A stretch of 27,077 nt of DNA from Gemmatimonadota bacterium (lineage in GTDB: Bacteria; Gemmatimonadota; Gemmatimonadetes; Gemmatimonadales; GWC2-71-9): the NCBI GenBank assembly GCA_003220905.1, contig QHTS01000087.1, positions 1 to 27,077 of the forward strand. The letters run 5' to 3'. The notes under the pieces were generated by a model. That model was not told the origin of the DNA, ran no database searches, and saw nothing but the letters and a program-made list of their open reading frames with translations. Positions 1,604 to 8,805 of the stretch are shown piece by piece. Each line of letters opens with the position of its first letter. Position 1 is the stretch's first letter. A program made the position numbers and the translations under genes.

Positions 1604-1704
1604 AATGCGGATTTCGGAATGCGGAATGCGGAATTGCAGTGAAGGTTCGCTCGCCTCACGACCTCCCCTGTACATTCCGCATTCCGAATTCCGCATTCCG
1701 CATT
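1604..1704. repeat. Heptamer-armed palindromic element, copy 1
   Basis: Left arm 1604-1634 is (AATGCGG)x4 plus AAT, one unit being ATTTCGG. A 39-nt core follows at 1635-1673. Right arm 1674-1704 is (ATTCCGC)x4 plus ATT, one unit being ATTCCGA. It begins 4 nt after the mlaD stop. Confidence 0.95.
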
Positions 1705-2209: not shown

Positions 2210-2976
2210 CCGCCGTCGTGCCGGTGTTCAACCCTCGCGCCGAGCCGCGGCGGGCGGTGAAGCGCGGCTACCCGCGCGATGCGGGGAGCGTGCGGCTGTG
2301 CCGCACCCTCGCGGCAGTCGAGCGACTGCTGTACCAACGCCTCGTTGACGCGGTGGTGCTCGACGTGAAGACCGCGCCCGCCGCCGCGCTCGCGTTGCCG
2401 GCTCGGTTTCCCCGCATCCCCATGTTCGTGCTGTCGGCCCTGCGGCCCGACGACGGCCCGCTGCTCGCCGCCTGCGATGCGGCGGGGTTCGCCGGCATGC
2501 TGGTCGAGGGGGTGGACAACTCGGTGGCGGGGGAGTGGATCGCGGCCCGTACGGCGCAGGTGGCGCGACGCGAAGCGCTCGCCGATGCGCCCAAGCTGCT
2601 CCGCCTCACCGATCGGCTGCAGCTCGCTGCCTGGGACGAGGTGCTCCGCCGGGTCGGCTTCCCCACACAGACGGGCCAGGTGGCGGCGGCGCTGCGGGTC
2701 ACACGGGAGCACCTGTCACGTGAGTTCGCCGCCGGCGGCGCTCCCAACCTGAAGCGGGTCATCGATCTGGCGCGCACGGCGTGCGCCGCCGATCTGCTGG
2801 GCAATCCCGGGTACACGGTGCGGGCGGTGGTGCACATCCTCGGCTACGCGTCGACCAGCCACCTCGCGGGGGCGGCGCGGCGCGTGGCGGGAACGACGCC
2901 GCAGGAGCTGCGGGCGGTGGGGGCGCGAGGCGTGCTTCAGAGATTCATAAGAGGAAGGACGCGGTCGCGGATATGA
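2206..2976 (+). CDS. AraC-family HTH regulator with receiver-like N-terminal region
   Basis: ATGA overlap with the Nudix stop. The C-terminal double HTH pattern is VAAALRVTREHLSREF...AADLL...TVRAVVHILGYASTSHL...VAGTTP. The N-terminal alpha/beta region contains DAVVLDVK. Confidence 0.72.
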   Translation: MTAVVPVFNPRAEPRRAVKRGYPRDAGSVRLCRTLAAVERLLYQRLVDAVVLDVKTAPAAALALPARFPRIPMFVLSALRPDDGPLLAACDAAGFAGMLVEGVDNSVAGEWIAARTAQVARREALADAPKLLRLTDRLQLAAWDEVLRRVGFPTQTGQVAAALRVTREHLSREFAAGGAPNLKRVIDLARTACAADLLGNPGYTVRAVVHILGYASTSHLAGAARRVAGTTPQELRAVGARGVLQRFIRGRTRSRI

Positions 2977-3077
2977 AATGCGGATTGCGGAATGCGGAAT
3001 GCGGAATGTACAGGGCAGGTCGTGAGGCGAGCGAACCCTCACTGCAATTCCGCATTCCGCATTCCGAATTCCGCATT
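2977..3077. repeat. Heptamer-armed palindromic element, copy 2 (inverted relative to copy 1)
   Basis: Arms 2977-3007 (AATGCGG units) and 3047-3077 (ATTCCGC units). Core 3008-3046 is the reverse complement of core 1635-1673 with 2 mismatches. It starts immediately after the AraC-gene TGA. Confidence 0.95.
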
Positions 3078-3096
3078 CTTGTGATATTCCGCACTC

Positions 3097-3114
3097 TTGT
3101 GATAAGTTTCACAA
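3097..3114. promoter_or_regulatory. Palindromic operator, Rex-type or CRP-type, upstream of atpA
   Basis: TTGTGAT-AAGT-TTCACAA has one mismatch to the Rex consensus TTGTGAA-N4-TTCACAA and is a perfect TGTGA-N6-TCACA (3098-3113). It lies 19 nt before the atpA ATG. A duplicated half-site CTTGTGATA is at 3078-3086. Confidence 0.65.
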
Positions 3115-3133
3115 TCTCCTAACCGGCATCCCA

Positions 3134-4674
<1,541 letters not shown>

Positions 4675-4675
<1 letters not shown>

Positions 4676-5607
4676 TGGCGAAGCCCCGCGAGCTGCGCCG
4701 CCGCATCAAGTCCGTCCAGAGCACGCGCAAAATCACGAAGACGATGGAGCTCGTGGCCACGTCCAAGCTGAAGCGCGCCCAGGACCGCGTCGTCGCGGCG
4801 CGGCCGTACGCGACCGCCCTCGCCGAGGTCATCGGCGACCTCTACGCGCCGGAACTGGCGGAGCGGTTTCCCCTGCTGCGCCAACCGGCGCGGGACGGGC
4901 ACGGGCGCCGGGTGGCCCTCGTGGTCATCACCGCCAATCGGGGGTTGTGCGGCGCGTTCAACGCCAACCTGATCCGCGAGGCGCGGCGCCGGATCGAGCA
5001 GCTCGAGGCCGAGGGGACCGGGGTCGACCTTCATCTCATCGGGAAGAAGGGGATCACCTACTTCAAGTTCGCGAAGCGGGCGGCGGCGTCGCAGCGGACC
5101 GACGTGGGTGACAAGCCCAAAGCCGAGCATGCGGCCGAGATTGTGGGTCCACTCATGAGCCAGTTCGAGGCGGGGGCGCTGGATGCGGTGGAGGTGGTGT
5201 TCGCCCAGTTCAAGAGCGCGGTGAGCACCCCGCCCACGACGCTGCGCATCCTCCCGATTACCCCTCCCCGGGCGGACGGGCGGACGGGCGGACGGGCGGA
5301 CGCGGTGCAGTCACAGACCGCCAGTCCGGCTGACCGCCCGTCCGCCGCCTTCTATATCCTCAAGCCGTCCGCCGACGCGATCCTCGAGCAGCTCCTGCCG
5401 CTCTACGTGCGCAATCAGTTGTACCGGGCGCTCGTGGAAACCGCGGCGGCGTTCCTCGGCGCGCAGCGGACGGCGATGAAGAACGCCACCGACAACGCCG
5501 GCGAGATCATCGAGCTGCTGCAGCGCACGTACAATCGGGCGCGGCAGGCGCAGATCACCCAGGAGCTGGCGGAGATCGTCGGCGGGGCGGAGGCTCTGAA
5601 AGGATAG
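4675..5607 (+). CDS. atpG: F-type ATP synthase subunit gamma (carries an in-frame repeat-derived segment)
   Basis: Motifs RELRRRIKSVQSTRKITKTMELVA, ITANRGLCGAFNAN and AMKNATDNA...YNRARQAQITQELAEIVGGA. The ATG overlaps the atpA TGA. Confidence 0.97.
5269..5346. repeat. Octamer-armed palindromic element inside atpG
   Basis: Four perfect GGGCGGAC units at 5270-5301, a 13-nt spacer, then four degenerate reverse-complement units (AGACCGCC, AGTCCGGC, TGACCGCC, CGTCCGCC) at 5315-5346. It encodes RADGRTGGRADAVQSQTASPADRPSA. Confidence 0.9.
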
Positions 5608-7086
<1,479 letters not shown>

Positions 7087-8721: not shown

Positions 8722-8793
8722 GAAGGAGGTTGTGGAGGATGGTGAAGGTTGGTGATCCTCCACCATCCTCCACCGACCTCCACCAACCTCCCC
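8722..8793. repeat. Decamer-armed palindromic element
   Basis: Left arm of GGTGGAGGTT-like units (GGAGGTT GTGGAGGAT GGTGAAGGTT GGTGA) abuts right arm TCCTCCACCA TCCTCCACCG ACCTCCACCA ACCTCC. It starts 3 nt after a stop codon. Confidence 0.85.
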
Positions 8794-8805
8794 GAAGGAG
8801 TACTT

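What the first reader, a model, noticed from the sequence alone, without database searches (positions are those of the whole stretch)
5269..5346. Palindromic DNA repeat translated in frame inside ATP synthase gamma
Seen: 78 nt made of four perfect GGGCGGAC units, a spacer and four degenerate reverse-complement units encode 26 aa between ILPITPP and AFYILKPS. Established: this is the variable loop before the conserved Y..EP motif of gamma, and in-frame palindromic insertions are known from Rickettsia palindromic elements. Inference: a dispersed repeat has become protein sequence in an essential rotor subunit. The unit is 8 nt, so gain or loss of one unit would frameshift atpG. The array is therefore under frame constraint or is a slippage-prone switch.
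Basis: partly seen in the sequence, partly recalled or inferred. Interest (0 to 1): 0.75.

Follow-up and report, generated by a model that had tools for sequence, protein, structure and literature searches.

The report
Translated repeat hairpin in ATP-synthase gamma
A 78-base hairpin made of 8-base repeats is read in frame as a 26-residue loop of the ATP synthase rotor protein of a soil Gemmatimonadales bacterium. It is one copy of a genome-wide, fast-changing repeat class that fills gene ends and tolerant protein loops, and it looks like tolerated passenger DNA, not a genetic switch.

Summary
Observation confirmed. Window 5270-5301 holds four perfect GGGCGGAC units. A 14-nt spacer follows, then four degenerate reverse-complement units (5316-5346). 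The RNA fold is -60.4 kcal/mol (z -3.8). The segment is exactly 26 codons (R199-A224) of atpG (4675-5607).

- The unit is dispersed: 39 hits to a 3-unit pattern in this MAG against 0 for the control. About 113 hairpins in the genome share the architecture, and at least 12 more lie in frame in conserved genes.
- Close relatives show a short allele at this site, or other repeats.
- One allele lacks exactly three units (24 nt). No out-of-frame allele was seen in more than 180 relatives. This supports frame constraint, not a switch.

New here:
- The site is the same one that carries the cyanobacterial and chloroplast gamma regulatory insertion.
- Within the genus the loop carries different units in different species. 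In 5 of 6 species the unit is the family most abundant in that genome.
- No other copy shares the atpG spacer, and no transposase is linked to these repeats.

This scan had already found the class in other Gemmatimonadales genomes, in frame in tgt, glmM, meaB, pfkB and alaS. The closest published parallels are Rickettsia palindromic elements, the Xanthomonas and Nostoc four-unit G-rich heptamers, and the Geobacter four-unit repeats. I rate it a new variant of a known kind.

The parts
4675..5607 (+). atpG, F1 ATP synthase gamma subunit, 310 aa; the only copy found in the MAG
   Evidence: Pfam PF00231 E 1e-93. Translation. Single match in the genome. Flanked by atpA (3134-4675) and atpD (5611-7086).
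5269..5346 (+). Translated palindromic segment: 26 codons (R199-A224) forming the loop after ILPITPP
   Evidence: An RNA-library contig of 151 nt covers 5241-5391 with 0 differences and 0 gaps.
5270..5301 (+). 5' G-rich arm: four perfect GGGCGGAC units (also a G3N5 x4 motif by direct reading)
   Evidence: TRF period 8, 100% matches. Direct repeats.
5302..5315 (+). Spacer (hairpin loop) unique to this locus
   Evidence: blastn-short of the element against the genome: other copies match positions 1-34 or 50-78 only, never the spacer.
5316..5346 (+). 3' C-rich arm: four degenerate reverse-complement units (GACCGCCA GTCCGGCT GACCGCCC GTCCGCC)
   Evidence: Inverted repeat I1, 29 nt and 86% complementary. 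Fold.
1604..1704 (.). Same architecture, heptamer AATGCGG arms; intergenic, starts just after a stop codon
2976..3078 (.). Same architecture, AATGCGG arms; inverted copy of 1604-1704 including its core; upstream of atpA
   Evidence: Relatives have hairpins at the same place with units AACGCGG or ATTGCGG.
8727..8795 (.). Same architecture, decamer GGAGGTTGGT-type arms; intergenic

Best explanation
The segment is one resident copy of a lineage-specific class of 'tandem-unit hairpins'. Each has about four copies of a 7-10-nt G-rich unit, a locus-specific spacer, and about four copies of the complementary unit. In this Gemmatimonadales genus they occupy places where sequence is free to vary: just after stop codons, and in surface loops or linkers of proteins.

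In atpG the repeat sits in the one loop of gamma that tolerates long insertions, the same site as the cyanobacterial and chloroplast regulatory insertion. It is transcribed and read through as a low-complexity Gly/Arg/Ala/Asp/Thr/Pro loop.

Shown:
- the anatomy of the repeat;
- its dispersal in the genome;
- in-frame status;
- natural alleles at the site, including a short one;
- a three-unit deletion allele;
- different units in different species at the same site;
- absence of any shared spacer.

Inferred:
- Unit number changes by replication slippage, and selection on an essential gene lets through only changes that keep the frame.
- The unit sequence is kept in step with the genome's own dispersed family by some copying or gene-conversion process that acts on arms rather than on whole elements.
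- The hairpin in atpG has no function of its own. It is a tolerated passenger, not a phase-variation switch.
For: Class and dispersal:
- 112 hairpins were found by the TRF plus reverse-complement test, against 2 for a reverse-only null.
- 99 have the G-rich arm first and 8 the C-rich arm first.
- The modal arm has 4 units (117 of 198 arms).
- (GGGCGGAC)3 gives 39 hits in the own genome against 0 for the control.

Tolerated positions:
- At least 12 further copies lie in frame inside Pfam-confirmed genes. Most sit in inter-domain linkers (LigD, MutL, NadE, PheT, the 2-oxoglutarate dehydrogenase E1/E2 fusion) or loops (MFS, TGT, KsgA).
- That is only about 12% of copies, in a genome that like most bacterial genomes is mostly coding (general knowledge).

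Site:
- HMMER alignments place the segment exactly where 5zwl_G and spinach 6fkf_g (residues about 239-272) carry their insertion.

Alleles:
- Short (21-nt), hairpin, direct-array and REP alleles occur in proteins 83-95% identical.
- Loop state is homoplastic on the tree: the octamer state needs at least 5 changes.

Frame filter:
- L082 equals L085 minus 24 nt, which is 3 units.
- No loop among more than 180 loci is out of frame.

Coupling to the genome's family:
- The atpG unit is the most abundant of the tested families in 5 of 6 genomes.
- G000: 39 GGGCGGAC against 15 GGTCGGAY. G008: 70 against 0. G007: 0 against 109. G018: 0 against 38. G032: 30 GACGGAAG.
- Decamer arrays are dispersed only in genomes that carry the decamer allele.

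Not needed as a hairpin:
- 11 of 20 species representatives carry a direct decamer array with no inverted arm.
- The three-unit deletion allele drops the fold from -60 to -34 kcal/mol.

Transcribed unspliced:
- An RNA-run contig spans the segment.
Against: - Pairing is well kept where the hairpin exists: 91% of cells are paired, against 28-54% when the partner is slid.
- Unit variants change on both arms together: GGGCGGAC/GTCCGCCC, GGTCGGAC/GTCCGACC and GGTCGGAT/ATCCGACC. This could mean selection for the structure rather than passive copying.
- The octamer state is old. There is an octamer-only clade of 12 sequences with 100/98 support, and hairpins occur in relatives down to 74% identity. 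That is long for pure junk.
- Translation was not shown directly.
- The RNA contig has depth 2, and DNA carry-over in that library cannot be excluded.
- Logan contigs cannot reveal rare length variants.
- The copying or conversion process is inferred only. No enzyme was identified.
- Metagenome contigs may be strain chimeras, which would inflate the homoplasy on the tree.
Confidence: 0.7

Rival explanations
1. RNA- or DNA-level function. The very stable stem, or a G-quadruplex in the G3N5 x4 arm, inside the atpA-atpG-atpD message slows ribosomes or directs processing. This would help set the low gamma:alpha/beta stoichiometry.
For: - MFE is -60.4 kcal/mol, z -3.8.
- 91% of cells are paired across 7 homologous hairpins against 28-54% in slid controls, with two GC-to-UA double changes.
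- Arms change together in G007, G018 and G000.
- Intergenic members sit right after stop codons, as terminators or REP-type stabilisers do.
- Rehm et al. 2015 (PMC4692102) showed G4 formation in vitro for four-unit G-rich heptamers.
Against: - Most species of the genus (11 of 20) have no inverted arm at this site.
- Natural deletion alleles break the stem.
- Short alleles exist in near-identical backgrounds.
- The covariation statistics are weak: 2 cells, and 53 of 500 shuffles do as well.
- With a complementary arm 14 nt away, a G4 would have to compete with a 26-bp stem.
Confidence: 0.12
2. Protein-level function. The 26-residue loop is a new regulatory element of gamma, analogous to the cyanobacterial and chloroplast insertion that modulates ADP inhibition or redox control.
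For: - It occupies the same insertion site as 5zwl_G and 6fkf_g.
- Long loops persist and stay in frame across a clade of 74-93% identity.
Against: - The loop sequence is hypervariable and dictated by the DNA unit: GRTGGRAD, GRTVGQSD, GKVGRLEG and TEGRKDGK in different species.
- It has no Cys pair.
- An 8-aa deletion and 11-residue alleles occur in almost identical proteins.
- The loop has the lowest pLDDT (27-36) and no secondary structure, though the model as a whole is poor.
Confidence: 0.08
3. Contingency locus. The 8-nt array is a slippage-prone on/off switch of atpG.
For: The unit length is not a multiple of three, and there are four perfect units.
Against: - No out-of-frame allele was found in more than 180 homologous loci.
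- No indels or joints were found in the contigs of two DNA runs (weak evidence, because contigs drop rare variants).
- atpG is single-copy and is a core energy gene.
- Four units is a short tract for efficient slippage (general knowledge).
Confidence: 0.03
4. Ordinary MITE or REPIN mobilised by a transposase and inserted once as a block.
For: - The repeat is dispersed and genus-restricted, with patchy copy number of 0 to 70 per genome.
- One Y1 (RAYT-type) transposase gene is present in the genome.
Against: - The RAYT is flanked by a different repeat, GACCCCGGGCGCAAGCCCGGGGTC, not by octamer arrays.
- No other copy shares the spacer.
- Outgroups carry the direct array alone at this site.
- In KsgA the two arms overwrite two variable segments with almost no length change, and the 'spacer' is a conserved native strand.
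- No target-site duplication is evident by comparison with the short allele.
Confidence: 0.07

Closest known systems
Rickettsia palindromic elements (RPEs; Ogata et al. 2000, from my own knowledge)
   Same: Palindromic dispersed repeats that lie in frame inside conserved, even essential, genes. They are translated as extra surface segments without destroying function.
   Different: RPEs are 100-150-bp families with a conserved full-length consensus. Here only the arms are shared, the arms are tandem 7-10-nt units, the spacer is specific to each locus, and the unit differs between species at the same site.
G-rich heptamer repeats of Xanthomonas and Nostoc (GGGNATC; Rehm et al. 2015, PMC4692102)
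   Same: G-rich units with a clear preference for four copies. They are spread over the genome, lie near stop codons, and form 70-75 convergent inverted pairs per Xanthomonas genome that could fold as stem-loops. The modal arm here also has 4 units.
   Different: The phyla differ. Xanthomonas has one dominant unit per genome. Here many units of 7, 8 or 10 nt coexist, nearly all copies are paired with the G-rich arm first (99:8), and several are translated. Those authors report under-representation in coding regions and describe no in-frame cases.
Four-unit hepta- and octanucleotide multicopy sites of Geobacter metallireducens (Aklujkar et al. 2009, PMC2700814)
   Same: Four tandem heptanucleotides (GGACCGG) occur at 49 intergenic and intragenic places. 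Paired sites of four tandem octanucleotides lie on opposite strands at variable distance.
   Different: They were interpreted there as regulator-binding sites or RNA elements. No in-frame allelic series or species-specific unit turnover was described.
REP/REPIN elements with their RAYT transposase
   Same: Short dispersed palindromes at gene ends. The genome has one RAYT-type gene with its own REP, and that REP is itself found in frame in AtpG loops of relatives.
   Different: The octamer hairpin is not the repeat that flanks the RAYT, and its arms are tandem arrays.
Regulatory insertion of cyanobacterial and chloroplast ATP synthase gamma
   Same: Same insertion point in gamma, after the (L/I)LP(L/I)xP strand and before the C-terminal helix.
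   Different: There is no sequence similarity, no Cys pair, and no evidence of a folded beta-hairpin. Here the peptide is a by-product of a DNA repeat.

Membership tests
Rickettsia palindromic elements (RPE) | In-frame presence inside conserved protein-coding genes | tested here: met
   26 codons inside atpG. At least 12 further in-frame copies in Pfam-confirmed genes.
Rickettsia palindromic elements (RPE) | Copies share a conserved full-length consensus of about 100-150 bp | tested here: not met
   Other copies match the arms only; the spacer is unique. The element is 78 nt.
REP/REPIN-RAYT system | The repeat flanks, and is cognate to, a Y1 (RAYT) transposase gene | tested here: not met
   The single PF01797 gene (G000:C357:1844-2182) is flanked by a different palindrome, GACCCCGGGCGCAAGCCCGGGGTC.
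MITE | Conserved internal sequence between terminal inverted repeats, inserted as a block with target-site duplication | tested here: not met
   No shared core. No duplication is visible against the short allele. In KsgA the arms replace native segments around a conserved native strand.
G-rich four-unit simple-sequence repeats (Rehm 2015 type) | Tandem G-tract units with a preference for four copies | tested here: met
   Four perfect units containing GGG. The modal arm has 4 units across the genome.
G-rich four-unit simple-sequence repeats (Rehm 2015 type) | Convergent inverted pairs able to form stem-loops | tested here: met
   The paper reports 70-75 such pairs per Xanthomonas genome.
G-rich four-unit simple-sequence repeats (Rehm 2015 type) | G-quadruplex formation of the G-rich arm | not testable with these tools
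   The sequence fits G3N5 x4 by direct reading. It needs CD or UV melting, with and without the complementary arm.
Phase-variable contingency locus | Unit-number polymorphism that switches the reading frame on and off within populations | tested here: not met
   All loop lengths are multiples of three. The only unit-number change seen is 3 units. No indels in contigs. Rare variants remain untested.
Cyanobacterial/chloroplast gamma regulatory insertion | Insertion at the same point of gamma | tested here: met
   HMMER alignments to 5zwl_G and 6fkf_g.
Cyanobacterial/chloroplast gamma regulatory insertion | Homologous sequence (conserved beta-hairpin; redox Cys pair in chloroplasts) | tested here: not met
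   The inserted residues show no similarity and contain no Cys.

The most novel reading that the evidence does not exclude
This Gemmatimonadales genus has an unrecognised, unit-specific copying or conversion process with no evident transposase. It writes about four G-rich units and their complement into permissive 'slots' (gene ends and protein loops) and overwrites what was there. Each slot therefore tracks the repeat family currently active in its genome. The atpG loop is one such slot, at the very site where photosynthetic lineages evolved a regulatory insertion. On this reading a DNA-level process continuously redrafts protein loops and supplies raw material for new regulatory segments.
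Probability: 0.25. Interest if true: 0.85.

Novelty: new variant of a known kind. Interest (0 to 1): 0.58.

Why it matters
An essential, slowly evolving rotor protein can carry a -60 kcal/mol DNA/RNA hairpin as coding sequence. Natural populations offer a ready allelic series at one site: short loop, direct array, hairpins with four different units, and REP insertions.

This makes two questions testable.
- How do lineage-specific insertions in conserved proteins, such as the chloroplast gamma loop, arise in the first place?
- What process spreads and homogenises these four-unit repeat hairpins? Their origin and role have stayed unexplained since they were noted in Xanthomonas, Nostoc and Geobacter.

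The match between the unit in atpG and the genome's dominant unit family points to a trans-acting mechanism worth looking for.

Tried and rejected
- Structure prediction. The AlphaFold2 model of AtpG from alignment A1 came out poor (mean pLDDT 52.6, pTM 0.44). It shows only that residues 193-238 are the least confident part, so I ran no fold search on it.
- Covariation statistics. Seven homologous hairpins give only two double-sided changes, and 53 of 500 shuffles do as well. I do not claim proven structural selection.
- Read-level unit variation. Only Logan contigs were available. These hide rare variants, so the absence of indels is weak evidence.
- Gene finding. My first GC3-based gene finder missed atpG itself. 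I replaced it with a spanning-ORF filter plus Pfam checks. Four of the 16 candidates had no Pfam hit (L092, L098, L099, L102), and I do not count them.
- Literature. Full-text searches for Gemmatimonadetes palindromic or in-frame repeats, and for RPE papers, returned nothing specific.
- RAYT or MITE origin. Rejected for this element.
- Assembly artefact. Rejected.
- Simple single insertion followed by vertical descent. Rejected, because loop states are strongly homoplastic. Recombination or strain-chimeric contigs may contribute to that pattern.

Full report
**What is there.** The window comes from contig C3 of a 2.65-Mb, 386-contig MAG with 69% G+C and 73% completeness. Its closest public relatives are Gemmatimonadales MAGs from soil. 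atpG runs from 4675 to 5607, giving 310 aa with Pfam PF00231 at E 1e-93. It lies between atpA and atpD and is the only gamma gene found in the genome. Positions 5270-5301 are four perfect GGGCGGAC units; TRF reports period 8 and 100% matches. After a 14-nt spacer, 5316-5346 holds four degenerate copies of the reverse complement. The two 29-nt arms are 86% complementary. The RNA folds at -60.4 kcal/mol, and 1 of 200 dinucleotide shuffles folds as well (z -3.8). Position 5269 opens codon 199, so 5269-5346 is exactly 26 codons between ILPITPP and AFYILKPS.

**It belongs to a genome-wide class.**
- TRF over the whole genome, combined with a test for a reverse-complement partner within 160 nt, finds 112 elements of the form (unit)n-spacer-(complementary unit)n. 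A reverse-only null finds 2.
- 82 elements have period 7 and 27 have period 8.
- The G-rich arm comes first in 99 elements and the C-rich arm in 8.
- The modal arm has four units, in 117 of 198 arms.
- 108 of 113 units are stop-free in all six frames, against about 80% for random genomic k-mers.
- Three more elements lie in the window itself: 1604-1704, 2976-3078 and 8727-8795.
- About 13 hairpins on other contigs use the GGGCGGAC-type unit.
- A three-unit pattern with up to 2 mismatches hits this genome 39 times, against 0 for the reversed control.
- Other copies share only the arms with the atpG element, never the spacer.
- The soil metagenome runs show a depth spike, and many contigs with unrelated flanks, exactly on the array.

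**Other copies are translated too.** A spanning-ORF filter followed by Pfam checks shows at least 12 further elements in frame in conserved genes. Most lie in inter-domain linkers: LigD, MutL, glutamine-dependent NadE, PheT and a 2-oxoglutarate dehydrogenase E1/E2 fusion. Others lie in loops: MFS transporter, TGT, KsgA, an ATP-grasp enzyme, a Y-family polymerase, a ClpB-like AAA+ protein and ComF. Only about one copy in nine lies in coding sequence, and those copies sit in permissive positions. That is what purifying selection on a non-specific process would leave behind.

**The site in gamma.** HMMER alignments to solved structures place the segment between the (I/L)LP(I/L)xP strand and the start of the C-terminal helix. 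This is exactly where a cyanobacterial gamma (5zwl_G) and spinach chloroplast gamma (6fkf_g, about residues 239-272) carry their lineage-specific insertion. More distant Gemmatimonadota have a 7-residue loop there. The AlphaFold2 model is poor overall (mean pLDDT 52.6). It says only that residues 193-238 are the least confident part, with no secondary structure.

**Natural alleles at the site** (relatives 74-96% identical):
- A short loop, PPRSGGSAANY.
- Homologous octamer hairpins (L081, L085, L086, L106).
- The same hairpin with unit GGTCGGAC (L067, which is G018) or GGTCGGAT (G007). Both arms carry the change, and the spacer is shared.
- Unrelated octamer hairpins: GGAAGGTT in L115 and G037, GACGGAAG in G032.
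- Direct decamer arrays, GGGCGGCAGA x about 3.5, with no inverted arm. These occur in 11 of 20 species representatives.
- Direct octamer arrays without an inverted arm (G008, L001, L002, L125).
- In-frame doublets of an ordinary REP (L084, L107, L129).

L082 differs from L085 by a clean 24-nt deletion, which is three units or 8 residues. No loop in more than 180 loci is out of frame.

**Tree.** A tree of 121 gamma sequences with both variable loops removed shows strong homoplasy. The octamer state needs at least 5 changes, the decamer state at least 9, and the short state at least 4. There is also a deep octamer-only clade of 12 sequences with 100/98 support. So the repeat at this site is old, but its state turns over or recombines much faster than the rest of the protein. 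Strain-chimeric metagenome contigs may exaggerate this.

**Coupling to each genome's own repeat family.** Counts are of three-unit patterns with up to 2 mismatches; all reversed controls were 0 for the first three families.

| Genome | GGGCGGAC | GGTCGGAY | GACGGAAG |
|---|---|---|---|
| G000 | 39 | 15 | 0 |
| G008 | 70 | 0 | 0 |
| G007 | 0 | 109 | 1 |
| G018 | 0 | 38 | 4 |
| G032 | 1 | 17 | 30 |
| G037 | 34 | 7 | 0 |

- In five of six genomes the unit in atpG is the most abundant of the tested families.
- G037 is the exception. Its GGAAGGTT unit is no commoner than the control (4 hits against 5).
- The decamer is dispersed, with 4-11 hits, in five genomes that carry the decamer allele. It is absent from G000.
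- Related genomes are not independent, so this is suggestive rather than proven. It does argue that the array in atpG is not a private microsatellite and is tied to a genome-wide pool.

**Same slot, different filling.**
- The hairpin upstream of atpA uses AATGCGG here, and AACGCGG or ATTGCGG in relatives, with unrelated spacers.
- The atpG/atpD junction is empty here. In three relatives it is filled by three unrelated hairpins.
- In KsgA of this genome the two AATGCGG arms overwrite two variable segments with almost no length change. The 'spacer' between them is the conserved native VVHGDAL strand.
- So arms need not arrive as a block with their own spacer.

**Mechanism.** The genome has one Y1 (RAYT-type) transposase. 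It is flanked by a different palindrome, GACCCCGGGCGCAAGCCCGGGGTC, so a REP-RAYT or MITE origin for the octamer hairpin is not supported. My reading runs as follows.
- Arrays expand and contract by slippage (inference).
- In atpG only frame-preserving outcomes survive. This is shown by the three-unit deletion and the lack of frameshifted alleles.
- Arms are copied or converted between loci within a genome. This is inferred from the family coupling, the arm-only similarity and the KsgA case.
- The hairpin in atpG is a tolerated passenger.

Against a required RNA or DNA structure: most species lack the inverted arm at this site, and the deletion alleles break the stem (-34 against -60 kcal/mol). 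In its favour: pairing is well preserved where the hairpin exists (91% of cells against 28-54% in slid controls), and two GC-to-UA double changes occur. Those numbers are too small to be significant.

**Expression.** A 151-nt contig from a metatranscriptome run covers 5241-5391 without a single difference or gap. The segment is therefore not removed from the transcript. The depth is only 2, and DNA carry-over cannot be excluded. Contigs of two DNA runs show no indels or joints in the array, but contigs drop rare variants.

**Comparison with what is known.**
- Functionally the element behaves like a Rickettsia palindromic element: a dispersed palindrome read in frame in essential genes. It fails the RPE criterion of a conserved full-length consensus.
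- Architecturally it is closest to the four-unit G-rich heptamers of Xanthomonas and Nostoc, which include 70-75 convergent inverted pairs per Xanthomonas genome (PMC4692102).
- It also resembles the four-unit hepta- and octanucleotide sites of Geobacter metallireducens, some of which are intragenic (PMC2700814).
- None of these papers describes the in-frame allelic series, the species-specific units at one site, or the strict G-first polarity.
- Earlier agents of this scan found the same class in other Gemmatimonadales genomes, in frame in tgt, glmM, meaB, pfkB and alaS. This finding is a further, well-documented member. What it adds is the gamma regulatory site and the link between the atpG unit and the genome's repeat family.

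Noticed in passing
G000:C357:1844-2182 (-) and flanks; relatives L084:3586-3660, L107:3086-3160, L129:1041-1124, L086 and L106 (loop after LLRQP): A single RAYT-type Y1 transposase gene is flanked by the REP GACCCCGGGCGCAAGCCCGGGGTC, which has about 20 copies in the MAG. In relatives this REP is itself inserted in frame at two different loops of AtpG, read as DPGRKPG or PGLAPGV. So two unrelated repeat classes invade the same protein.
   Followed up: partly
L097 (G000:C341:11177-12010, minus strand), element at G000:C341:11670-11791: In KsgA/RsmA the two AATGCGG-type arms replace two variable segments with almost no length change. The 54-nt 'spacer' between them is the conserved native VVHGDAL strand, as shown by alignment to 6ifs_A. 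The arms therefore did not arrive as one block with their own spacer.
   Followed up: partly
L081:2563-2641, L086:3951-4022, L088:3891-3971 (atpG/atpD junction); window 5607-5611: Three relatives carry three unrelated tandem-unit hairpins (units CATCCGT, GGGACTA and GGGTGYC), each starting right at the atpG stop codon. The window and other relatives have only a 3-nt junction there.
   Followed up: partly
window 2976-3078 and L082:1280-1424, L083:1288-1459, L084:1285-1459, L088:1327-1459: The hairpin upstream of atpA sits at the same place in relatives but uses the one-base unit variants AATGCGG, AACGCGG and ATTGCGG. Both arms change together, and the spacers are unrelated.
   Followed up: partly
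G000 contigs C100, C128, C168, C227, C261, C291, C341, C47, C49, C57, C93 (loci L089-L105): At least 12 further tandem-unit hairpins lie in frame inside Pfam-confirmed housekeeping genes: ClpB-like, LigD, MFS, ComF, MutL, NadE, PheT, KsgA, ATP-grasp, a 2-oxoglutarate dehydrogenase E1/E2 fusion, DinB and TGT. Most are in linkers.
   Followed up: partly
window 3078-3133: An AT-rich palindrome, TTGTGATA-N-TTTCACAA, lies just upstream of atpA. It is conserved in all relatives examined (L081-L088) while the adjacent hairpin varies, so it is probably a regulator binding site.
   Followed up: no
G000 contigs C291:2505-2612, C30:275-390, C378:3939-4026: A separate C-first palindromic family (CCTCACCCCCTG...CAGGGGGTGAGG) with internal sub-hairpins accounts for several of the rare 'C-rich arm first' cases. 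It looks like a different kind of repeat.
   Followed up: no
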